From positions 1 through 25,360 of IMG/VR virus record IMGVR_UViG_2734482786_000001: a stretch of 25,360 nt of DNA; one strand, 5' to 3'. The translations under genes were made by a program, and so were the position numbers. The notes below the pieces were generated by a model. That model had not been told where the DNA came from and made no database searches. It saw only the letters and a list, made by a program, of their open reading frames with translations. Positions 12,349-25,360 of the stretch are shown here, one piece after another. How positions within the stretch are numbered: position 1 is the first letter of the stretch; each line of letters begins with the position of its first letter. The stretch comes from a virus (lineage: Duplodnaviria > Heunggongvirae > Uroviricota > Caudoviricetes).

Positions 12349-14130
12349 TTAGATTATATTATAGGCCTTCGCTGACATAGATAATGTTCTAATCTGAACT
12401 TTTTGGGCATTCCATTCCTCATCGTTAGATGAATACTCATCAATAAACTCATTAACCACCTTAAGGTTTGACTTCTTATACTCGTTTATTTTTTTACTTA
12501 AGCTATCATTTTTACATGATTCATTCAAAGTAAAGCAAAGAGGAAGAAGATTCCCCATTAATCCAACAACCTCTGAGTCAAAACTACTTTGTGCACCAAT
12601 ATGCTCGAGTGAAACTAAGTCTAATTTTAACTCATTAGTTCCTCGCAATTTCTTTTCAAAACGTTCAAAAATATACATTATGAGCTTACGCTGGGAGGCT
12701 TTTTTATTTGTATAAAATAAATTTTTAACAAATGCCTCATTGAATACTTTTTCATTTGGACTTTTCGCAGAAAAGTATGCTATTGCTTCACTAATGGTTG
12801 ATTCGATACTACGTTTATTAGTAGCTTTATCAAGGCTTACTGCTAATACTGAATACTTGGCGTCTATGCCAGAGGGTCTTAATCGGCAAATAGCATTAAA
12901 TCTAAAGTGGAATCTCTCTAAACACATTAGACACTCTATTAAACTTTTTTGCGAAAGACTTCTAGATTTATCTCTTCTTTTTCTTAATAATGACAAAATG
13001 AATGGGCGAGGGATTGAAACATTGAATATTTCAAATGCTTTAAGTGAATTGTAAATATCTCGCTGATCCTGTTGAGGCCAATCATCAATATCTGGAGAAA
13101 TTATCTTACAATATAAATCAACATCTTTATGCAACTCATCCAAAAATGAAATTGCAGTTAATCCATAAACACCATCATTTATCTCTCTTTTAAAGGCACG
13201 GTATAGTTGATCTTCACCTATATAATTAAACTTAGAAAGCCACCAACACCTGACATAATCAACCATTGTAGCGTTACTATCTCTAGCTTCGATGCAATTA
13301 GTAATATAATCCCATTTCTCTTTGGCTTTATCTATTGGATATGTTTCAATACAACTCTGGAAAACTTTATTTTTAATCAGATCAAGGGAGCTTAAGTTTA
13401 TTCCCCTTGCATTCAAAACCTCGAAAATATCATACGCGTCATCTTCCTTGCCTACTGATATCCTTACTAATTTAAGATAATTAGTAACCATATTGTAAAC
13501 GGCATTCAAGCAAAAAAGGTAATCTTCCTTTTTATACTTTACTGCACCGTCACGCAACAAAGAAGAACATAATGCTTTCTTTCCTAGCTTTCTGCTTAAA
13601 TACAACCCAGCATATTGAATCTTTTTATCTTCATCGCAAGTCACATCAGCTTTATGCTCAACTCTATCTTGGAATTTTAGTTTAAAAAAAGCCCTGTCAC
13701 TATTTTTAGAAAGCTTCTCAACTACTGAGTCGCCATTAGAACTGACAGAATTTCTATTGAACGTCTGATTTGCGGTTACGATATATGTTTTAAAAATATC
13801 ATCAGCAAATTCGGCCTTCCCATTTTTTCTTAAAAACCTAGAAATTAAAGAAAGTAGAATTGTAATAACACTGAAACGCTGCTGACCATCAACAATCTCC
13901 AAAACATTATCACTGTCAGCACCAGACAATACAATTGTACCAATAAAGTACTCATTGAATTCAAAGTCATCCCCTTTGGGATTTAATTTTATATTTCTTA
14001 TTATGTCTTGCCACAATTCATCAAGTTGTAACTTTTCCCAACTAAATTCTCGTTGATTCCGTGGAATCACATAACGCTGTTTAACAGAAAGTATATTTTT
14101 AATATTTAAAGGAGTTGCATCAAAATTCAT
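12349..14130 (-). CDS. DUF262/DUF1524 (GmrSD-like) nuclease family protein; candidate anti-phage defence gene
   Basis: N-terminal DUF262 signatures (VIPRNQREFSW, EIVDGQQRF, FEVLNARGINLSSLDLIKN) and C-terminal His-Me/HNH-like DUF1524 signature (SLEHIGAQ…GNLLPL…N). Start set at first ATG 14130 (RBS-like AGGGAA); the track ORF starts at TTG 14181. Strongly AT-rich relative to flanking phage genes. Confidence 0.75.
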   Translation of the reverse strand: MNFDATPLNIKNILSVKQRYVIPRNQREFSWEKLQLDELWQDIIRNIKLNPKGDDFEFNEYFIGTIVLSGADSDNVLEIVDGQQRFSVITILLSLISRFLRKNGKAEFADDIFKTYIVTANQTFNRNSVSSNGDSVVEKLSKNSDRAFFKLKFQDRVEHKADVTCDEDKKIQYAGLYLSRKLGKKALCSSLLRDGAVKYKKEDYLFCLNAVYNMVTNYLKLVRISVGKEDDAYDIFEVLNARGINLSSLDLIKNKVFQSCIETYPIDKAKEKWDYITNCIEARDSNATMVDYVRCWWLSKFNYIGEDQLYRAFKREINDGVYGLTAISFLDELHKDVDLYCKIISPDIDDWPQQDQRDIYNSLKAFEIFNVSIPRPFILSLLRKRRDKSRSLSQKSLIECLMCLERFHFRFNAICRLRPSGIDAKYSVLAVSLDKATNKRSIESTISEAIAYFSAKSPNEKVFNEAFVKNLFYTNKKASQRKLIMYIFERFEKKLRGTNELKLDLVSLEHIGAQSSFDSEVVGLMGNLLPLCFTLNESCKNDSLSKKINEYKKSNLKVVNEFIDEYSSNDEEWNAQKVQIRTLSMSAKAYNII

Positions 14131-14224
14131 ATCATCATTCCCTAGACATGACCATGGGTTGATCGTTAATTTACTTAACAAGATAGATTAAAACAACTAT
14201 TACTAATTCATATCTCAGCGCGCG

Positions 14225-14243
14225 CTCGTATCCCCGCCACGCC
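14225..14243 (-). other. Candidate cos site (19-nt cohesive end of P2/186-type)
   Basis: Minus strand reads GGCGTGGCGGGGATACGAG followed by CGCGCGCTGA; the first 13 nt match the 186 cos (GGCGTGGCGGGGAAAGCAT) as recalled, and the following GCGCGCTGA resembles the P2 left end. Confidence 0.4.
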
Positions 14244-14292
14244 TGCCCGCTTTATGTAGTGGTTTTCATGCACCTGCATGATCTACGCAAAA

Positions 14293-14312
14293 GCCCGCCA
14301 GTTCTGGCGGGC
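14293..14312 (-). terminator. Rho-independent terminator after the tum/DinI-like operon
   Basis: GCCCGCCAG-tt-CTGGCGGGC hairpin followed on the minus strand by TTTTGCG. Confidence 0.45.
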
Positions 14313-14447
14313 CTTAGCAAAAACGATCCTCAAACGATCATGCGATCTCATGCGGCATAGACATGCACTACAGAGCTAACGCCTCGCAAGGGCTCGTTGT
14401 TCAACCTTGCTGACGCCAGAAGCAAGTTCAGACGCCAGCAACGTTTC

Positions 14448-15033: not shown

Positions 15034-17448
15034 TTAATACAGGTTTCGCCACTTATCATCTTCCTGCAAACGCTGGTTCCGATAGAAGATACGCAGGCCT
15101 GCTCCTGACGGAATACTGCCGCCGCGAAGGAGTAAATCGACCTCTTTCTCGCTGCCATCAAATCCTCTGGACTTCAGTTCGTAGACGAGCTGCTGTCGCT
15201 GATGGTCTGTAATTCGCTGTTTGTAGTCTTTACGCCGTTTCGGTTTCACCAGGCGTAACCTTGCAGCCAGTTCCCGGCGCTCTTTTTTGCTCATACTGTG
15301 CAGGTAATCGTGCAACTCCTTGTCATCCATGCGGGTAATGTCCGTCCTGGTATCCCCATCAGCTGATTTGTCTTTCCCTTGTTGGTTCAAATTTTCAGCA
15401 AGGGGACAGTTATTGCCACGAGTCCAAGGGGCGCAAGCGCCCTGGTCGGCTGCCGCCTCCTGAACGTCAACGGCTTTACGAACCATTTTCCACTTCACTG
15501 CATGAGTGCAGATCTTGCCCTCTGCAATGGGTGACCAGATGCCATAAATACGAATGCCGTGATCGCCATAGGCGGTCGGCTCTTCGTTGATTTCATAAGC
15601 GGTTCTGATGAGGTGATATTTACGGGGAACCAGTACGCCGCCCTGCTTCATGATGTAGGTGGCAAAACAACCAGCATCAGCAGCAGCCAGAATGGCATCA
15701 AGACGCGGGTTATCCAGTACCGGCGCACCTGCATTTTTGTCCCCCTGTTGCCTTGCCGCCTGACCAGCCAACAATCGCAGTTCACGGTAAGCCTGACGCC
15801 CCGGAATGCCAAAGAAGCGGAATTGCTGAACACGATGCAAAGACGCCCAGGCATTCACGTATTCAGCGTTATCACGCAGAGATTTACCCGTTTCCTTGCT
15901 GATCTCGCCAGCCAGACCACGACCGTCAATGTTCTTACTGATATATTTCGCGATGTAGCTTGTCGGCGTTCCTTTGCGCGGGTTAATCAACTCAGACTTA
16001 AAGCGCGGCCCAGTGTTATTGCCCAGCTCCTCGCGGTCTTCACGGATGGCAAACTTACGCAGTAATGCAGTGATGGCACGGCGGTCTTTTTTGCGCATGA
16101 AACACAACAGGTGCCAGTGAACTGTGCCATCATGATGCGGCTCAGCCACCCGCACGCCATACCAGCGCAACCCGGCTTTGTGCATCGCCTTACGAAATGC
16201 AGCAAACATGCCGACCAGATAATCGCTGCTTTGTCTTACCGTCGCGTTTGTCCAGGTCGGGTTTGGTCTGCCGTTATTTAGCGTGGAATGGAAACGCGAC
16301 GGACAGGTGATAGTGTAGAAAACGGCGCAGTCACCGCGCATTTCCGCGATAAGCTCCAGACCTTTAACACAGGCCATCATCTCATTGCGGCGATGCGCAG
16401 GGTTGCTGCTGCTGGCGTTTACCACATCCTCCATGTCCAGCGTGTCGCCGTCTTCGTTCACCAGTTCATGAGAACGGAAAAACTCCAGCGACTTACGGCG
16501 CTGCTCACGTTTATGCATCACGGCTTCATAGCTGACATAAGGAGATGCTTTTTTGCTGACCAGGCAAACAGCGCGCAACTGCTCTTCCCGCCATTCGCAA
16601 CGCATCTTCCATAATTTCCGATACCACCAGTCGGCGCACAACATACGCGCCAGCGAACCCGGAATGAGTTCATAGGGCACGGGTTTACGGCGGTTTCTTT
16701 TCCGACGGAGTTGCTCAAACGCAGGTGGGATGACATCCAGACGCAGGGTCTCCGCTGCCACCTTTTCCCATGTCTTGCGGATTTCTTCTGGCTTAACGTC
16801 ATCGGTGGCATACAAATCACCACAAGCTGCATCAAGGCACATACTCATATGCGCAGCTACCAGGGTGGACAGGCGTTTCACCTGATCCTGACTCATTTCA
16901 GGCAGGATCAGCAGGCCGTCCAGCCCTTCATGGCTTGCCATAAAGCGAAAAGATGCAGATAGCTGACTGTCGCGTACATGCTCCAGTCGTTCCAGACATG
17001 GCTTAATCGTCTCACGTAAATAGCGGGAATAAGCCTTTGGCCTGCCCAGGCTGCTGAAGTATTCAATACGTTGCATCAGCGGCTTGCTGATATGGGAAGG
17101 CTGGGCGTTGACGTCCGCCAGAATGACCATGTCTGAATTAAAACGCTGCTGCTCATGCGCCAGCTTTGCCCGGCTAATGAGCTTATCCTGCTCCATTTCG
17201 CGCTGGACAGGATCACGTGATTCATTAAAGAAATAACGCTCCCAGACCTGATCACTCAGTGCCTCGCGGCGCAACTGTTCCTGCTCGTTATCGGCAGCGT
17301 ACAGAGTGATCAGGTTTGAAAGCGTAGAAACCGGCGCAACTTCCGCCGGGTCCAGATAAGGGTTAATGGCCTTTTTCGGGCTGTTCCATGAGAATGCTGC
17401 GGCAGCCTCGTTAAAGCCGCAGCAGTTGTTCATATCGGCATGAGTCAT
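15034..17448 (-). CDS. A: Replication initiation protein gpA (rolling-circle endonuclease)
   Basis: 804 aa; HUH-like motif region (…[10 protein letters not shown]…) and active-site Tyr region (…[10 protein letters not shown]…); ATG start overlapping the dam stop. Confidence 0.85.
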
Positions 17449-18302
17449 GCACGTACTCCGTACACGGCAGAACTATCCACGCCACGCGAATAATCAAATC
17501 CCATCCAGCAGCACGGCCCGGAAACAGCAATGATTTCTGTTGCTGATTTACCCTCGCCAGCTGCCACACCGATGCTGCGTTTTACCTTGATATAGTGGTG
17601 AGTAAAATTGCGATACAGCGAACGGATCAGGGATGTGTCACTGTTAGAAACAATGACTGGATGTCCTTCTGATGACCGATGTTCAAGAACGGATGCCAGG
17701 TGATACTGGTCATCTTCAGTGAAACCATCAGTGTGATAGCCGGAAAACGTACCGTCATACGGCGGATCGCAATACACCACATCTCCCGCGTGCAACATTG
17801 CCAGCGTTTCATCGAAGCTGGCGCAGATAAATGTTGCCCGCTGGGCTTTTTCTGCAAATGCACGAATTTCTTTTTCAGGGAAATACGGATTTTTATAATT
17901 ACCGTAGGGAATGTTGAAATGCCCGCTCTTGTTATAGCGACATAAACCACGGTAACCGTGCCGATTGAGATACAGGAAATATACCGCTTTCATGAAATCA
18001 GTAATTTCAGTGGAGTAATTAAACTCCTGCCTTATGTTGTAATAAGCCACCTCCCTGTTTGCGATCTCAAATAAAACTCTGGCGCGAGATATAAACGATT
18101 CACAATCAGCGGCAACCTTTTTATAGAGGTTGATTAAATCAGGATTAATATCCGCAACCAAATAGCTGGGGTAATCCGTCTCCATCATCACAGCACAAGA
18201 ACCCGCGAAAGGTTCAACCAGTCGCGGGCCAGCAGGAAGGTGTTTTTTCAGTTCGGACATAATGGCGGTTTTATTACCCGCCCATTTCAGGATGGTGCTC
18301 AT
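17445..18302 (-). CDS. dam: DNA adenine methyltransferase (Dam family, N6-adenine)
   Basis: 285 aa; AdoMet motif I ([10 protein letters not shown]) and catalytic DPPY ([12 protein letters not shown]). Confidence 0.85.
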
Positions 18303-18526
18303 ACAGCACCTCCGTTGTAATGTTTACCTTTCAGCTCTGCGATTTCCTGACAGGTAATGCAAAGCTGCACTCCCGGAATGGCGCGGCGGCGTGCTGGCGG
18401 AATTGGCGCTTCACACTCAATGCAAAGCACGCGAGACACGCCCGGTGTTTTGGCACGGGCAGCACGGATGTGGCGCTGGCGTTCTTCTTCAACGCGCTGC
18501 TGTACGAGATCCATTGCATCAGCCAT
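18299..18526 (-). CDS. TraR/DksA-family C4 zinc-finger protein
   Basis: 75 aa; CxxC…CxxC (CIECEAP…LCITCQ). Confidence 0.65.
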   Translation of the reverse strand: MADAMDLVQQRVEEERQRHIRAARAKTPGVSRVLCIECEAPIPPARRRAIPGVQLCITCQEIAELKGKHYNGGAV

Positions 18527-19190: not shown

Positions 19191-19415
19191 CTATCGTTGT
19201 TTGTTATTACGGTAACGTTCAAGAGGAGATACATTTTTTCGTATCGTCTCTTTAACCTGCTCTCCCCGTAAAAACGTCCCATCCTTTAGCGTGAAAAAGT
19301 AACTGCCATCGCCCGACAACGACGGATAACAACAGAGCAAATCATCTTCAGGTACTGAATAACTCTCCCCTCTGTAACGAAACTGATAAACCACTTCACC
19401 TTCCGCTGCATACAT
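19191..19415 (-). CDS. Hypothetical early protein (74 aa), possibly Fil/Dhr-position gene
   Basis: ATG preceded by GAGGAAACAGAGAAA; overlaps another ORF in a different frame (see findings). Confidence 0.4.
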   Translation of the reverse strand: MYAAEGEVVYQFRYRGESYSVPEDDLLCCYPSLSGDGSYFFTLKDGTFLRGEQVKETIRKNVSPLERYRNNKQR

Positions 19416-19582
19416 TTTGACTTTCTCTGTTTCCTCGTGGTCAATTCAGACAGCAATTCGTCTTGTGAATGACATGGATGCCAGCGTTTTCCATCCTCAC
19501 CCATGATCCAGCCGTGACCGTAGTGCATTGCCGGGCTTTGCTTTACCAGCAGCGATGCAAATGATGGTTCTTTCGTCAGCAT
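19286..19582 (-). CDS. Hypothetical ORF immediately downstream of cII, overlapping the 74-aa ORF
   Basis: ATG at 19582 with GAGGTG RBS, 8 nt after the cII stop; the 3' two thirds overlap 19191..19415 out of frame, so extent is uncertain. Confidence 0.3.
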   Translation of the reverse strand: MLTKEPSFASLLVKQSPAMHYGHGWIMGEDGKRWHPCHSQDELLSELTTRKQRKSKCMQRKVKWFISFVTEGRVIQYLKMICSVVIRRCRAMAVTFSR

Positions 19583-19589
19583 AAGCACC

Positions 19590-20099
19590 TCACAGCAACC
19601 CGAATGAAGCACCGAGACCAGTTACGGTATCAACTGCACTTGCCATCGCAGGATTAGCCTGTAAACGGGCCTGCAATGAAACAGCAGCCAGCGCCATCAG
19701 TCGTGTAACAGAGTTAATGCTGCTGATCGCATCACGACGGCCTGCACTGGTTTTTACATCGCCAGAAACCGCACCAGCCGCGACACGCCCTATCTCTGCA
19801 GTTGCACTCATGACGTAATGCGGTAGTTTCTCTTTTGCCACCTCATTAATCGGAACACATGGCAGACAATGAATCTGTGCCAGAAAACCATCTACCAGCG
19901 TTGAATCTTCAGTCAGATCGGTAAGTAGCCAGATATCTCGTGCAGTGAGCTGATGCGGTTGTTCCGGGTTCAGCTTGTTACGCAGCGTCTGGACGTTCAT
20001 TCCCGCGAGTTCTGCTAGCTTCGCCATATTGTGACGTAGTGCAAAAGCTCTACAGGCTTCATCAAAATGCGGATGTTTGGAAATCTTGTAATCAAACAT
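19590..20099 (-). CDS. cII: CII-like lysogeny establishment activator (phage 186 CII family)
   Basis: 169 aa, same length as 186 CII; HTH segment NMAKLAELAGMNVQTLRNKLNPEQPH matches 186 CII as recalled; AGGGAG RBS. Confidence 0.8.
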   Translation of the reverse strand: MFDYKISKHPHFDEACRAFALRHNMAKLAELAGMNVQTLRNKLNPEQPHQLTARDIWLLTDLTEDSTLVDGFLAQIHCLPCVPINEVAKEKLPHYVMSATAEIGRVAAGAVSGDVKTSAGRRDAISSINSVTRLMALAAVSLQARLQANPAMASAVDTVTGLGASFGLL

Positions 20100-20454: not shown

Positions 20455-20483
20455 AAAATACGATCTCGTTATTGGATTGTCAA
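20455..20483 (-). promoter_or_regulatory. Candidate lytic promoter (pR-like): TTGACA-17 bp-TATTTT on the minus strand
   Basis: Consensus -35 (rc of 20478..20483), 17-bp spacer, -10 TATTTT (rc of 20455..20460); directs transcription toward apl/cII. Confidence 0.45.
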
Positions 20484-22152: not shown

Positions 22153-23184
22153 ATGGAAAAAAGCATTAGCACATTTATGTACCTATCCGTTTTATTAGGT
22201 TGTATATTCTTATTTATAAAATATCGACTTTATGTTCTCGATCATAGAAGCCTGTTCCAACAACCCTTGTTCTGGGCTGCAATAGGCCTACCTTTATTCA
22301 CCAGCCTTTACTTTGGTTCTTTTGTCTGGATAGATAAAATACACTCTTTTAGTCTTACAAGTCACGGTTATGAGAGATTTTTAGATATCTCGAAATTACC
22401 ATTACTCATCCTTGCATCTGCAGTACCTTTAGTTTCAATAGTAAACAACCTACACAGAACCAAACAAACAGAAAAACAGATCTCAGAGGCAGAAAGGAAA
22501 AACAGGGTAGATTTATATTACAACCACATGAAATTTCATCTTGATTTATATAAAAAAATCGAAGGAAAAAGAATAGGCAGCTACTACCCGGTTCAGGAAG
22601 CTCAAGCTGAAGCAATCTACCAACATTTTATAAAACATCCACAAGAACTATATAGAAAAGCATACCCACAATCTACGCCTGATGATTCTCAACAATTAGA
22701 TATTAATGAGCAATTTGTTATTGATTTACACAAATGTTGGGTAGAAATCAACGCAAGACTCAAGCAATTATCCGAGAGTGAAAATCAAATACATCCTACA
22801 GAGGAACTTTGCACAACAAAGATGAGAATATTTGTAGGAGTTATGATTATTTATGAAAAAACTTGTAAACTGTTGTGTTTAGGTGGATTTCATTATAAAA
22901 AGTCATTTGTAATAAATGATAGTTATAATAAATACCAAGTTTATTCACCATTTTATGATTTTGGCACTCTGTACGAATCACTGCAATCCTTAGAAGAGAT
23001 AACCTACGCCTTCTTGGATACTTGCAGAAATGAAGTGGTAAACTTGTACTTCCCTATAGAAGATAAAATTTTGATATATGGTGAAGGGATTCTAGAGAAT
23101 TGGTTCAAGTATTCTCAGTTCTTGATCACTATAGCTTATCAACCCGCCAAGATGTCTCGCTTACCCCAGCTGAGACGCGATTGA
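22153..23184 (+). CDS. Membrane-anchored protein of unknown function (cargo between int and att)
   Basis: 343 aa; ATG 2 nt after the int stop; three predicted N-terminal transmembrane helices, then a ~230-aa soluble domain with no motif recognised by eye; markedly AT-rich. Confidence 0.6.
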   Translation: MEKSISTFMYLSVLLGCIFLFIKYRLYVLDHRSLFQQPLFWAAIGLPLFTSLYFGSFVWIDKIHSFSLTSHGYERFLDISKLPLLILASAVPLVSIVNNLHRTKQTEKQISEAERKNRVDLYYNHMKFHLDLYKKIEGKRIGSYYPVQEAQAEAIYQHFIKHPQELYRKAYPQSTPDDSQQLDINEQFVIDLHKCWVEINARLKQLSESENQIHPTEELCTTKMRIFVGVMIIYEKTCKLLCLGGFHYKKSFVINDSYNKYQVYSPFYDFGTLYESLQSLEEITYAFLDTCRNEVVNLYFPIEDKILIYGEGILENWFKYSQFLITIAYQPAKMSRLPQLRRD

Positions 23185-23505: not shown

Positions 23506-25360
23506 TCAGAACGACCAGTTCACACCAGCTACCGCGTTCCACGGGGATTCCACACCGGCACTATGGCTATACCCCACCCCAAGATGCCCGCTTAACGTAC
23601 TGCTGAATGAGGCTTTAATACCTGCCTGGTATATTCCACGTCTGCCCGACAAATAATTGACGAAATTACCGTCACTATTCACTTTCACCCGGTTATCATC
23701 GACAAATTCTTTGCGCACAGCCGCCTTCAGCCACGGCTCAACTTCCATACCGTTCCCCAGACGCATGTTGTAACTCAGCGTTGCGCCCAGTTCACGATAT
23801 ATACTGCGGGTATCGACTGATTTCGATTTCATGCCATTGGATAAATGATATTCGGGGTTATCAGCGGTGAACCCCGTTAACGATGCATACGGCGTCAGGT
23901 TCCAGTTACCATCGGTAAATCGCATCCCGGTTTCAATGTGACCGCCCAGCCCGTTGCTGTGGTAACTGCCATTGGCGGCTCCACCGCTGCTCATTTTACC
24001 TGCTACGTTACTTTTAAAACGGTTCAGCTTCACGACACCGTCCAGATAGAAACCACTTTCATGTTCCCAACTGGCATAGCCGCCCAGAGAATAACTGCCC
24101 ACACTGCCATGTCCTCCGCGATCAAAACCGATATGTGAATGGGAATAGCCCATAAAAGCGCCTAGCGTGGTAATTCCTTCAGGAATATCATTACGGCTGT
24201 CGATCCCCACTGTCATTCCGGTCAGCGTCTGCTCAAACCCGGCACCCGCATCGGTGGTGACATTATTACGGGTGTTATACGTCGCCCCCCAGACATTATT
24301 GTTGTGTGGACTCGCTTTCATTATGTTCAACCGCTCGCGAATACTGTTTAGCTCAGCATCAAATACCAACGGTAATGTTGCTGCCATATTGAGTACGGCT
24401 GCCGTAGAAGGCGTAATGCGTTTCTCCGGAACGGGTGTCGGCGTTGGATCGGGAGTAGGGTCTGGTTTTGGATTTGGGTCTGGCTTTGGATCGGGTTTTG
24501 GGTCTGGCTTTGGATTTGGGATGGGGTCCGGGTTGGGTTTGACATCATTGGTCAGGTTCCAGTTGCTGTTGCCGTCACTTTTCAGGACATACTCATAGGT
24601 CCCAAGATCAACGAAACCGCCGGTATTGCCCAGCGTAAACGAAGCATCCCCTCCCCCTGTTTTCACCAGCGTCATCGCGTCGTCAGACTGTGGGCTGACG
24701 CCGGTATCCTGAACAAAGATTTTAAAATTACCAGTGGCGTTGTTGTTGACGACCAGTTGATCGCCCCGGGAGCCTGCAACGTTGGTATGCAGGTAGAAAT
24801 TACCGCTACCGGAAAGTTCATTGGTTGTCAGCGTATTGTAGATACCGTTAGTTGTGGCAGGCGCTGCTGTTTGTGCTGACAAATAAACATCACCGTCGTT
24901 GAGTAGCAAACTGTTTACTCTATATTCGCAGTTGCTGGTACCTGCACAGGAATTATTGCTGTTAAGCCAGACACTGCCCCGGCTGGCAGCCGTCAGGTCG
25001 GCAAGCGTGGTATCGACGCCATTTCCCAGAGTCAATGTCGCGCTATCGGTAATCCGGACCGCCCCTTCGAGTTTAACTGGCGTAACATTATCCCGTGGCG
25101 TCATTAACGACAGGCTTCCTGTCGCGCCACTGACCGATGCATCCGCCAGCGTACCTGCGTAGACGATTGCCGTACCGCCAGCGACCTGGAGATCTTCTGC
25201 CCGGGCCAGAGCCTGAAACTCATCTTTTGACCGCCCAAGGGTATATTGCCCGCCAGAGTTAACCTTTGTGGCGGAGTCCTGACCCAGGTTTTGCATTGCC
25301 CCACCCTTGCCAACCGTGGAGTCGCGAGCTTCGGTACCTGCTAAGGAAGGTGCGAACAAG
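23506..25360 (-). CDS. Autotransporter (type Va) outer-membrane protein, C-terminal part; gene continues beyond window end (host gene, possibly YpjA-like)
   Basis: C-terminal beta-barrel-type domain ending …VNWSF, Pro-rich PDPKPDP linker, Ser/Thr/Gly/Asn-rich passenger; no start codon context in window. Confidence 0.8.
   Translation of the reverse strand, partial: LFAPSLAGTEARDSTVGKGGAMQNLGQDSATKVNSGGQYTLGRSKDEFQALARAEDLQVAGGTAIVYAGTLADASVSGATGSLSLMTPRDNVTPVKLEGAVRITDSATLTLGNGVDTTLADLTAASRGSVWLNSNNSCAGTSNCEYRVNSLLLNDGDVYLSAQTAAPATTNGIYNTLTTNELSGSGNFYLHTNVAGSRGDQLVVNNNATGNFKIFVQDTGVSPQSDDAMTLVKTGGGDASFTLGNTGGFVDLGTYEYVLKSDGNSNWNLTNDVKPNPDPIPNPKPDPKPDPKPDPNPKPDPTPDPTPTPVPEKRITPSTAAVLNMAATLPLVFDAELNSIRERLNIMKASPHNNNVWGATYNTRNNVTTDAGAGFEQTLTGMTVGIDSRNDIPEGITTLGAFMGYSHSHIGFDRGGHGSVGSYSLGGYASWEHESGFYLDGVVKLNRFKSNVAGKMSSGGAANGSYHSNGLGGHIETGMRFTDGNWNLTPYASLTGFTADNPEYHLSNGMKSKSVDTRSIYRELGATLSYNMRLGNGMEVEPWLKAAVRKEFVDDNRVKVNSDGNFVNYLSGRRGIYQAGIKASFSSTLSGHLGVGYSHSAGVESPWNAVAGVNWSF

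What the first reader, a model, noticed from the sequence alone, without database searches (positions are those of the whole stretch)
17445..18302. Phage-encoded Dam-family adenine methyltransferase embedded in the early/replication operon
Clear motif I (FAGS) and motif IV (DPPY) N6-adenine methyltransferase, translationally coupled to replication gene A (ATGA overlap). It could protect phage DNA from restriction or alter host methylation-dependent regulation; target sequence is unknown. Notable given the neighbouring candidate modification-dependent nuclease on the same prophage.
Basis: partly seen in the sequence, partly recalled or inferred. Interest (0 to 1): 0.4.

Follow-up and report, generated by a model that had tools for sequence, protein, structure and literature searches.

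The report
Known P2-like prophage Dam methylase
This is an intact, well-known DNA adenine methylase gene (the "retron Ec67 / Fels-2" Dam family, almost certainly marking GATC) that sits just ahead of the replication gene of a P2/186-like prophage, is present in about a quarter of complete E. coli genomes, and is ordinary rather than new.

Summary
Window 17445-18302 (- strand) is an intact 285-aa ORF with motif I (FAGS) and motif IV (DPPY). It shares ATGA stop/start overlaps with the DksA-like zinc-finger gene upstream and with replication gene A downstream.

It is a Dam-family (D12 class) N6-adenine methyltransferase: Pfam E=4e-76, TIGR00571 320 bits, about 46% identity to E. coli Dam, and an AF2 model with TM 0.82/0.95 to 2G1P.

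The target is predictable. The residues E. coli Dam uses to read GATC (K9, Y119, L122, R124, P134, Y138) are all kept. The deviations (N120R, G39C, short post-DPPY loop) lie at positions where GATC-specific T4 Dam also differs.

The gene is already annotated:
- 99% identical in phage Cartapus, with homologues in Fels-2, RE2010 and many Klebsiella phages.
- Present in 1239 of 5426 complete E. coli genomes.
- Its 90% cluster carries the name "retron EC67 DNA adenine methylase" (Hsu et al. 1990).

It lies in the CI-repressed early lytic operon, in a variable cargo slot before gene A that in relatives also holds other DNA-modification genes.

There is no linkage to the neighbouring GmrSD nuclease. 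Verdict: already known, low interest.

One side lead: conserved GATC sites next to cos.

The parts
17445..18302 (-). dam: 285-aa orphan Dam-family (D12 class, alpha-type) DNA N6-adenine methyltransferase
   Evidence: ORF. PF02086 E=3.6e-76. TIGR00571 320.6 bits. phrog_56. EcoDam 2g1p E=5e-74. AF2 pLDDT 90, TM 0.82/0.95 to EcoDam. dN/dS 0.06-0.25.
18198..18209 (-). Motif I (SAM binding), FAGS within EPFAGSCAV. The second Gly of FxGxG is Cys.
   Evidence: Read. F32 and G34 are invariant and C36 is invariant within the clade. 14 of 115 family representatives have Cys there and T4Dam has Leu.
17757..17768 (-). Motif IV (catalytic), DPPY, residues 179-182
   Evidence: Read. Aligned to EcoDam D181-Y184.
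17895..17954 (-). DNA-recognition segment (residues 117-136: Y117, R118, L120, R122, N124, P132, Y136), equivalent to EcoDam Y119-Y138
   Evidence: Alignment to EcoDam. Roles of the EcoDam residues come from PMC4417163. Only N120 is changed, to Arg.
17445..17448 (-). ATGA overlap: dam stop / gene A start
   Evidence: The same 4-nt overlap and a conserved junction occur in phage 186 orf84/A, where the record says translation to the end of orf84 appears necessary for A translation.
18299..18302 (-). ATGA overlap: DksA-like zinc-finger gene stop / dam start
   Evidence: The same arrangement is seen in Cartapus, E. coli 2011C-3911 and Fels-2.
15034..17448 (-). Replication initiator gene A (rolling-circle nickase), immediately downstream. 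The putative ori nick region is at about 15406-15443.
   Evidence: PF05840 E=1.4e-127. phrog_91. The ori was placed by local alignment to the annotated P2 and 186 ori.
18299..18526 (-). DksA/TraR-like zinc-finger gene, immediately upstream
   Evidence: PF01258 E=3e-11. phrog_54.
20455..20483 (-). pR-like early lytic promoter (TTGACA-17-TATTTT), divergent from cI. It is the only promoter-like site on the - strand between 14000 and 21200.
   Evidence: By analogy to the annotated pR of phage 186, which is repressed by CI and Apl.
14287..14313 (-). Strong intrinsic terminator at the end of the early/DinI transcription unit
   Evidence: dG -23.4 kcal/mol, z -4.4, 0 of 200 shuffles fold as well. Conserved in 74 related segments.
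14325..14347 (.). Cluster of three GATC sites (14325, 14336, 14344) among GCATG/TGCAT repeats, 85-104 nt from cos. A possible physiological Dam target (a lead only).
   Evidence: The sites at 14325 and 14336 are invariant in 72-73 of 74 related segments while the spacer between them varies.
14225..14243 (-). Putative cos cohesive-end 19-mer GGCGTGGCGGGGATACGAG. It marks the boundary between the conserved backbone and the variable cargo.
   Evidence: Homology to the annotated P2 cosR GGCGAGGCGGGGAAAGCAC. Conservation among relatives stops about 7 nt beyond it.

Best explanation
The ORF encodes an active, solitary (orphan) Dam-family DNA methyltransferase. It uses S-adenosylmethionine to methylate the N6 of adenine in 5'-GATC-3' on both strands.

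It belongs to the lineage first described as the Dam methylase of retron Ec67 (retronphage phiR67) and later annotated in Fels-2, RE2010, Cartapus and many Klebsiella P2-like phages.

It is not expressed from the quiescent prophage. It lies in the long early lytic operon that starts at the CI-repressed pR-like promoter (cox/apl, cII, DUF5347, DUF2732, zinc finger, dam, A). Ribosomes finishing the zinc-finger gene reinitiate on dam, and ribosomes finishing dam reinitiate on A, so methylase and replication initiator are made together.

The most likely role is to keep the burst of rolling-circle replication products fully GATC-methylated when host Dam is limiting. Packaged DNA would then be protected from nucleases that cut unmethylated GATC, and would not be treated as hemimethylated or unmethylated DNA (SeqA, MutH) in the cell.

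Shown here: family membership, motifs, recognition residues, fold, purifying selection, gene order and overlaps.
Inferred: GATC specificity, lytic-only expression, translational coupling, and the biological role.
For: Family membership:
- PF02086 E=3.6e-76.
- TIGR00571 320.6 bits against a cutoff of 114.85.
- PADLOC best hit is 'orphan methyltransferase' at 3.5e-111.
- EcoDam structures hit at E=5e-74.
- AF2 model pLDDT 90, TM 0.82/0.95 and rmsd 1.6-2.2 A to 2G1P/4RTx.

Specificity residues:
- K9, W10, R95, R116, Y119, L122, R124, N126, P134, Y138 and DPPY are all conserved in the query and in 104 clade members.
- Their roles in reading GATC are described in PMC4417163.
- The clade-specific differences (N120R, G39C, G13N, 5-residue shorter loop after DPPY) are at positions where GATC-specific T4Dam also differs.
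- R at position 120 occurs in 10 of 115 family representatives.

Already named:
- A member of the same 90% cluster is called 'retron EC67 DNA adenine methylase'.
- The Fels-2 STM2730 note says the same.
- Hsu et al. [quoted passage not shown]

Selection: all 67 homologues in related loci are intact, with dN/dS 0.06-0.25.

Operon:
- The only - strand promoter-like site is at 20483-20455, opposite cI.
- The 186 record annotates pR as CI-repressed and driving the early lytic operon. It also says translation to the end of the gene preceding A appears necessary for A translation.
- The junction CGGnGTAnGTGnATGAC is conserved between dam/A here and orf84/A in 186.

Role:
- The slot before A also carries a C5-cytosine MTase, a TGT/DpdA-like gene or a PAPS-reductase-like gene in relatives.
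- It carries two MTases in ESSI2_ev129.
- This fits a DNA-modification cargo slot tied to replication.
- The review PMC12707154 states that temperate phages express modifying enzymes upon induction.
Against: - No activity or methylome data exist for this exact protein. The 1990 paper could not be read here, and I could not compare the sequence directly with the original Ec67 protein.
- The host (E. coli) already has Dam, so the added benefit is inferred, not shown. Reviews say the in vivo role of phage Dam enzymes is still unclear.
- GATC is only mildly under-represented in the window (observed/expected 0.80), which gives no signal of selection from GATC-cutting nucleases.
- Dam is not always adjacent to A. 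In 14 of 67 Dam-positive relatives another gene lies between them, so coupling to A is not a fixed property of Dam.
- N120R is invariant in the clade, and its effect on base flipping or flank preference is untested.
Confidence: 0.82

Rival explanations
1. The main job of the enzyme is regulatory, not protective. It would methylate the conserved GATC sites that sit among the TGCAT/GCATG repeats 85-104 nt from cos. Terminase recognition or cos cleavage would then be gated by methylation state, as at the P1 pac site. Alternatively, transcription across the terminator into the cargo hotspot would be gated.
For: - GATC at 14325 and 14336 is invariant in 72-73 of 74 distinct related segments, while the 7-nt spacer between them varies.
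- The sites are 11 bp apart (one helical turn) and overlap a GCATGA repeat shared with the cos-proximal regions of P2 and 186.
- Fels-2 has the same four GATC sites.
- P2 and 186 lack both Dam and these GATC sites.
- P1 needs Dam methylation of pac for packaging (PMC12707154; Sternberg and Coulby 1990 in the reference list).
Against: - The GATC pair is equally conserved in the 9 related loci that lack Dam, so host Dam would suffice.
- A three-site cluster in 25 kb is not rare by chance (50 of 300 Markov simulations).
- No experiment links P2-family cos cleavage to methylation.
- The sites may be conserved simply as part of a protein-binding sequence.
Confidence: 0.1
2. The clade-specific substitutions (N120R, G39C, shorter post-DPPY loop) give the enzyme a relaxed or different specificity, so it is not simply a second GATC methylase.
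For: - These three features are invariant in 104 clade members and differ from EcoDam.
- N120 makes a base contact in EcoDam complexes.
- Some prophage MTases of other families are non-specific.
Against: - All residues that discriminate base pairs 1, 3 and 4 of GATC are kept.
- T4Dam, which is GATC-specific, has Ser at position 120, Leu at position 39 and a short loop.
- The family is named and was described as having Dam function.
Confidence: 0.05
3. The gene is a lysogenic-conversion factor. It would be expressed from the prophage and change host GATC methylation, gene regulation, mutation rate or antibiotic tolerance.
For: A Klebsiella study speculated that the adenine methylase on an amplified Fels-2-like prophage might affect colistin resistance (PMC7826664).
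Against: - The gene is in the middle of the lytic operon, with no promoter-like site of its own.
- The host already methylates more than 99% of its GATC sites (PMC4659465).
- Reviews describe such prophage MTases as silent in lysogens.
Confidence: 0.04
4. Dam and the neighbouring GmrSD-family nuclease form a functional pair: a modification mark plus a modification-dependent nuclease carried by the same prophage.
For: Both are on one prophage, 3.3 kb apart. The neighbour has GmrSD_N/C domains and matches HEC-06 models.
Against: - Only 1 of 66 Dam-positive related loci has a GmrSD homologue, at 37% identity.
- An identical dam sits next to a SEFIR-domain gene in strain 2011C-3911.
- The nuclease gene has 32.6% GC against 46.3% for dam. 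It lies beyond the terminator and cos, in the variable hotspot.
- A nuclease that attacked GATC-methylated DNA would kill a dam-positive host (inference).
Confidence: 0.02

Closest known systems
Retron Ec67 / retronphage phiR67 Dam methylase (M.Eco67Dam; Hsu, Inouye and Inouye 1990) and its annotated orthologues in Fels-2 (STM2730), RE2010, Cartapus and Klebsiella P2-like phages
   Same: - Same family and length (285 aa).
- Same kind of 186-related prophage.
- Same position between the DksA-like gene and gene A.
- Shared name within the 90% cluster.
- 99.3% nucleotide identity to Cartapus, 95.7% to RE2010 and 75.5% to Fels-2.
   Different: Nothing of substance. The cargo in the hotspot beyond cos differs: GmrSD here, a retron in phiR67, a SEFIR-domain gene in other strains. 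I could not align against the original Ec67 protein itself.
E. coli chromosomal Dam (EcoDam, PDB 2G1P/4RTx)
   Same: - Same fold (TM 0.82/0.95) at 46% identity.
- Same catalytic DPPY.
- Same GATC-reading residues K9, Y119, L122, R124, P134, Y138.
   Different: - Not the chromosomal orthologue: it scores 289 bits against the 441-bit equivalog cutoff of NF008152.
- Differs by N120R, G39C, G13N and a loop after DPPY that is 5 residues shorter.
- Has a 22-residue low-confidence C-terminal tail.
- Phage-borne and embedded in a lytic operon.
Phage T4 Dam (PDB 1YFJ/1Q0S)
   Same: Phage-encoded, GATC-specific D12-class enzyme. It shares the short post-DPPY loop and the non-Gly, non-Asn residues at EcoDam positions 39 and 120.
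   Different: Only 23% identical. It belongs to a virulent phage with hydroxymethylcytosine DNA, and its genomic context is different.
Phage P1 Dam (Dmt) with its methylation-dependent pac site
   Same: A temperate enterobacterial phage that carries its own GATC methylase and has clustered GATC sites in its packaging region. Here 2-4 conserved GATC sites lie 40-104 nt from cos.
   Different: - P1 uses headful pac packaging with seven GATC sites whose methylation is experimentally required.
- Here packaging is cos-type, no dependence is known, and Dam-less relatives keep the sites.

Membership tests
Dam family / D12 class N6-adenine DNA methyltransferases (PF02086, TIGR00571) | Score above the curated family thresholds over the full-length model | tested here: met
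   PF02086 scores 256.7 bits against a cutoff of 22, covering model positions 1-253 of 253. TIGR00571 scores 320.6 bits against a cutoff of 114.85.
Dam family / D12 class N6-adenine DNA methyltransferases (PF02086, TIGR00571) | SAM-binding motif I (FxGxG) placed N-terminal of catalytic motif IV (alpha-class order) | tested here: met
   EPFAGSC at residues 30-36, with F32 and G34 conserved. The last Gly is Cys, as in 14 of 115 representatives, and T4Dam has Leu there.
Dam family / D12 class N6-adenine DNA methyltransferases (PF02086, TIGR00571) | Catalytic motif IV, DPPY | tested here: met
   D179-P-P-Y182 aligns to EcoDam 181-184.
Dam family / D12 class N6-adenine DNA methyltransferases (PF02086, TIGR00571) | EcoDam-like fold (Rossmann catalytic domain plus DNA-binding domain with recognition hairpin) | tested here: met
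   AF2 model with pLDDT 90 and pTM 0.87. Foldseek to 2g1p/4rtx gives TMq 0.82, TMt 0.93-0.95 and rmsd 1.6-2.2 A.
GATC-specific Dam enzymes | Residues that read GATC in EcoDam: K9 and Y138 (base pair 1), Y119 (intercalation), L122 and P134 (base pair 3), R124 (base pair 4), N120 (base contact) | tested here: met
   Six of seven are conserved (K6, Y136, Y117, L120, P132, R122). N120 is Arg, invariant in the clade, but T4Dam has Ser there.
GATC-specific Dam enzymes | Demonstrated m6A at GATC (DpnI-sensitive, MboI-resistant DNA, or methylome) | not testable with these tools
   There is only indirect support: the family name and the 1990 title. The paper is not held.
Chromosomal Dam equivalog (NF008152, PRK10904) | Score at or above the equivalog cutoff | tested here: not met
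   289.2 bits against a cutoff of 441. It is a paralogous phage lineage, not the host dam.
Retron Ec67 / Fels-2-type prophage Dam | 285-aa Dam homologue in a 186-related prophage, between the DksA-like gene and gene A, and so named by public sources | tested here: met
   Gene order is shown. The name appears in the 90% cluster (P0282) and in the Fels-2 note. A direct alignment to the original Ec67 sequence was not possible.
Type II restriction-modification system | A cognate restriction endonuclease gene adjacent to the methyltransferase | tested here: not met
   The flanking genes are the DksA-like zinc finger and gpA. PADLOC's best model is 'orphan methyltransferase'.
P1-like methylation-gated packaging | Clustered GATC sites inside the packaging recognition site whose methylation is required for cleavage | tested here: inconclusive
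   Conserved GATC sites lie 85-104 nt from cos. However, they are also present in Dam-less relatives, such a cluster is not rare by chance, and there are no functional data.

The most novel reading that the evidence does not exclude
The physiologically important targets of this phage Dam may be the two invariant GATC sites (14325 and 14336; four sites in this phage and in Fels-2). They are embedded in the TGCAT/GCATG repeats next to the terminator and 85-104 nt from cos. Their methylation state would gate terminase action at cos, a cos-type counterpart of the methylation-regulated P1 pac site. Alternatively, it would gate read-through into the adjacent defence-cargo hotspot.
Probability: 0.08. 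Interest if true: 0.45.

Novelty: already known. Interest (0 to 1): 0.1.

Why it matters
It matters little as a discovery. The gene is annotated in public phage records and in about 23% of complete E. coli genomes, and its family was described in 1990.

The check is still useful in three ways:
- It replaces 'target unknown' with a well-supported GATC prediction.
- It removes the suggested link to the GmrSD nuclease.
- It places the gene in a variable slot before the replication gene that, in relatives, collects DNA-modification enzymes.

The open question is the same as for other phage Dam enzymes: why a phage of Dam-positive hosts keeps its own GATC methylase under strong purifying selection. 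The conserved GATC sites beside cos offer one cheap experiment on that question.

Tried and rejected
1. I tried to equate the gene with M.EcoMIV of E. coli ST131 EC958, a prophage 'Dam homolog' with no assigned motif and low transcription (PMC4659465). Fetching the EC958 region showed that M.EcoMIV is a 254-aa methylase of a Mu-like prophage. That paper's data therefore do not apply here.

2. I looked for GATC sites at the replication origin. The ori nick region, placed by homology to P2 and 186 at about 15406-15443, contains no GATC.

3. I looked for GATC avoidance as a sign of selection. Observed/expected is 0.80, in the middle of the range for 4-bp palindromes, so it is uninformative.

4. 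I looked for a 186 tM1-like terminator early in gene A. A hairpin at 17331-17349 exists but is no better than shuffled sequence (z -0.72).

5. I tested whether the triple GATC cluster is significant in its own right. It is not: 50 of 300 simulated sequences have one. Only its conservation across relatives is notable.

6. Literature searches for experimental work on the Dam of Fels-2, RE2010 or other P2-like phages found none in the held library. Hsu et al. 1990 and Fang et al. 2012 are not held.

7. A first version of the simulation script timed out and was rerun.
Full report
**Observation.** The window holds a P2/186-like prophage.
- Structural genes include the P2-type capsid, the GPO scaffold, terminase and portal.
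- A divergent CI repressor and integrase lie on the + strand. On the - strand there is an early lytic operon: Cox/Apl-like, CII, DUF5347, DUF2732, a DksA/TraR-like zinc finger, the ORF in question, and replication gene A.
- The ORF at 17445-18302 (-) is 285 aa with an ATG start.
- The dam stop codon overlaps the A start as ATGA (17445-17448). A second ATGA joins the zinc-finger gene's stop to the dam start (18299-18302).
- A GGAGG lies 6 nt upstream of the dam ATG, and a GGAG lies 7 nt upstream of the A ATG, inside dam.

**What it is.** The protein is a full-length Dam-family methyltransferase.
- PF02086 (D12 class N6-adenine methyltransferase) matches at E=3.6e-76 over the whole model.
- TIGR00571 'dam' scores 320.6 bits against a cutoff of 114.85.
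- It does not reach the equivalog cutoff of the chromosomal Dam model NF008152 (289 against 441 bits), so it is a separate lineage.
- PHROG 56 and PADLOC 'orphan methyltransferase' are the best hits in those libraries.
- The closest solved structures are E. coli Dam entries (E=5e-74).
- An AlphaFold2 model built on 89 homologues has mean pLDDT 90. It superposes on 2G1P/4RTx with TM 0.82 (query) and 0.93-0.95 (target), rmsd 1.6-2.2 A.
- Only the last ~22 residues, which extend beyond EcoDam, are of low confidence.

**Specificity.** The crystallographic literature on EcoDam assigns the following roles (PMC4417163):
- K9 and Y138 read the first base pair.
- Y119 intercalates.
- L122 and P134 read the third base pair.
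- R124 reads the fourth base pair.
- N120 makes a base contact.

In the window protein, and in all 104 full-length close homologues, K9, Y119, L122, R124, P134, Y138 and the DPPY motif are conserved. So are R95, R116, N126 and R249.

The clade differs from EcoDam at four places: N120R, G39C (motif I reads FAGSC), G13N, and a loop after DPPY that is five residues shorter. All four are invariant in the clade.

None of these positions is fixed among GATC enzymes. T4 Dam has Ser, Leu and Asn at the three positions and also has a shorter post-DPPY loop than EcoDam. I verified the T4 sequence as 100% identical to the T4 record. Across 115 representatives of the wider family, position 120 is Arg in 10 and position 39 is Cys in 14.

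I therefore predict GATC specificity with high confidence. 'Target unknown' is too cautious.

**Is it functional?** All 67 homologues found next to related A genes are intact (266-295 aa). Pairwise dN/dS against the window gene is 0.06-0.25.

**Is it known?** Yes.
- The DNA is 99.3% identical to 'Dam DNA adenine methylase' of Escherichia phage Cartapus (Peduoviridae, Elveevirus). It is 95-97% identical to Klebsiella and Salmonella P2-like phages, including RE2010, and 75.5% identical to Fels-2 STM2730.
- 1239 of 5426 complete E. coli genomes hold it, annotated 'DNA adenine methylase' and flanked by the same two genes.
- The exact protein sequence is on 342 contigs in the public collection. A member of its 90% cluster is named 'retron EC67 DNA adenine methylase'.
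- The Fels-2 record makes the same comparison.
[quoted passage not shown] Dodd and Egan 1996 showed that retron to be an insert in a 186-related prophage. Both references are taken from the reference list read.
- I could not read the 1990 paper. My recollection that it reports a 285-residue ORF 44% identical to Dam, with three GATC sites nearby, is memory and not a tool result.
- A Klebsiella study lists the same gene order (DksA-like 228 bp, adenine methylase 858 bp, replication endonuclease 2415 bp) on a Fels-2-like prophage.

**Context and expression.**
- The only promoter-like site on the - strand between 14000 and 21200 is TTGACA-17-TATTTT at 20483-20455, facing away from cI.
- In the annotated phage 186 record, the equivalent pR is repressed by CI and Apl and drives the early lytic operon.
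- Dam is therefore most likely silent in the lysogen and made on induction or infection. This is an inference. [quoted passage not shown]
- Orf84 is an unrelated PAPS-reductase-like protein, but it occupies the same place as dam and has the same 4-nt overlap with A. The junction CGGnGTAnGTGnATGAC is conserved, and so are the last residues (SSAVYGVRA* here, SSVYAGVCE* in 186).
It also suggests the 3' end of whatever gene sits before A is a shared coupling module.

**The slot.** P2 has only DUF5405 between the zinc-finger gene and A, and no methylase (also stated in PMC3091744). Phage 186 has an RNase_T-like exonuclease, DUF5405 and the PAPS-reductase-like orf84 there.

Of 80 IMG/VR loci with gpA 77-100% identical to the window's, 77 contained both the zinc-finger gene and A and could be classified. 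67 carry Dam and 10 do not:

| Arrangement between the zinc-finger gene and A | Loci |
|---|---|
| Dam directly before A, abutting the zinc-finger gene | 39 |
| Dam directly before A, with 300-1100 bp of unassigned sequence before dam | 13 |
| Exonuclease-like gene, then Dam, directly before A | 1 |
| Dam, then a TGT/DpdA-like gene (phrog_887, no Pfam hit) | 8 |
| Dam, then a PAPS-reductase-like gene | 5 |
| Dam, then a C5-cytosine methyltransferase (PF00145) | 1 |
| No Dam | 10 |

A phage of another genus, ESSI2_ev129, has two methyltransferase genes directly before A.

Dam has lower GC (46.3%) than its neighbours: 53.1% for A and 56.6% for the zinc-finger gene. The picture is a variable cargo slot, upstream of and co-translated with the replication initiator, that collects DNA-modification enzymes. 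The sample is biased to this lineage, so the proportions are not general.

**The neighbouring nuclease.**
- The 610-aa ORF at 12349-14181 (-) has GmrSD_N and GmrSD_C domains and matches HEC-06 models.
- It is 32.6% GC.
- It lies beyond a strong terminator (14287-14313, dG -23.4, z -4.4) and beyond the cos 19-mer (14225-14243, by homology to the annotated P2 cosR).
- That places it in the segment where conservation among relatives stops abruptly.
- Only 1 of 66 Dam-positive relatives with enough flank has any GmrSD homologue, at 37% identity.
- Strain 2011C-3911 has a 100% identical dam but a SEFIR-domain gene there.
- The two genes are independently acquired cargo. The suggested pairing is not supported.

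**Mechanism and role.** The enzymatic mechanism follows from family membership: SAM-dependent methyl transfer to the N6 of a flipped-out adenine in GATC.

The biological role is inferred. Co-production with gpA fits a need to keep rolling-circle products fully methylated when host Dam is limiting. That would protect packaged DNA from nucleases that cut unmethylated GATC. It would also avoid SeqA binding or MutH incision of under-methylated DNA. Reviews agree that the in vivo role of phage Dam enzymes is not settled (PMC7556043; PMC12707154).

**A side lead.** Three GATC sites lie within 23 bp at 14325-14347, and a fourth lies at 14280. They flank the terminator, 40-104 nt from cos.
- In 74 distinct related segments, the sites at 14325 and 14336 are invariant in 72-73, although the 7-nt spacer between them varies. 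This includes the nine loci that lack Dam.
- They sit among GCATG/TGCAT repeats that P2 and 186 also have near cos. P2 and 186 have no GATC there, and no Dam.
- Fels-2 has the same four sites.
- P1 packaging depends on Dam methylation of pac, so methylation-gated cos recognition is conceivable.
- Against it: the cluster alone is not statistically unusual, Dam-less relatives keep the sites, and there are no functional data.
- I rate this at about 0.1.

**Verdict.** The finding is real, and its main interpretation is right. The gene is already known and common, its target is predictable, and the proposed connection to the nuclease does not hold. Interest is low.

Noticed in passing
window 17445-18526, compared with loci L005 (phage 186), L006 (P2), L007-L086 and L088: The interval between the DksA-like zinc-finger gene and replication gene A is a variable cargo slot. 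In relatives it holds Dam alone, or Dam followed by a TGT/DpdA-like gene (L038:3162-3992), a PAPS-reductase-like gene or a C5-cytosine methyltransferase (L063:2826-4010). ESSI2_ev129 has two methyltransferases there, and some loci have nothing. It looks like a DNA-modification slot tied to replication.
   Followed up: partly
window 17445-17475; L005:5720-5760: The last ~27 nt of dam resemble the 3' end of the unrelated phage 186 orf84 (protein tails SSAVYGVRA* and SSVYAGVCE*). The junction CGGnGTAnGTGnATGAC, including the Shine-Dalgarno for A, is conserved. This suggests a shared translational-coupling module kept when the cargo is exchanged.
   Followed up: partly
window 14215-14370: A ~150-bp backbone segment is conserved in 75 of 80 related loci. 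It contains GCATG/TGCAT repeats, two invariant GATC sites 11 bp apart (14325, 14336) plus two more in close relatives, a strong terminator (14287-14313) and the putative cos 19-mer (14225-14243). Similarity to relatives ends about 7 nt past cos, where the variable cargo starts.
   Followed up: partly
window 12349-14181 (-): A 610-aa GmrSD-family protein (GmrSD_N and GmrSD_C domains; best PADLOC models HEC-06). Its gene has 32.6% GC and lies between cos and the portal gene, in the position where phiR67 carries retron Ec67 and other strains carry a SEFIR-domain gene. It is a defence-cargo hotspot.
   Followed up: partly
window 22153-23184 (+): A 343-aa ORF directly after the integrase gene has no Pfam or PADLOC hit. 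It is annotated 'hypothetical protein' in strain 2011C-3911. Phage Cartapus has a different gene there, a putative RES-domain protein. It may be a second cargo position at the prophage end.
   Followed up: no
window 23506-25359 (-): This is the C-terminal part of an AIDA/pertactin-type autotransporter, which marks the chromosomal flank of the prophage. The gene is annotated as frameshifted in strain 2011C-3911.
   Followed up: no
window 19191-19612 (-); L004:6721-7112: Between cII and DUF5347, the related E. coli record annotates a truncated Fil-family pseudogene and a small hypothetical gene. The window has overlapping ORFs at 19191-19415 (phrog_4312, unknown function) and 19286-19612. This region looks rearranged relative to 186 fil/dhr.
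   Followed up: no
L003:46787-47551 (E. coli EC958 chromosome): M.EcoMIV of ST131 strain EC958 was discussed in the literature as a prophage Dam homologue with no assigned motif. It is a 254-aa methylase on a Mu-like prophage and is unrelated in context to the gene studied here.
   Followed up: yes
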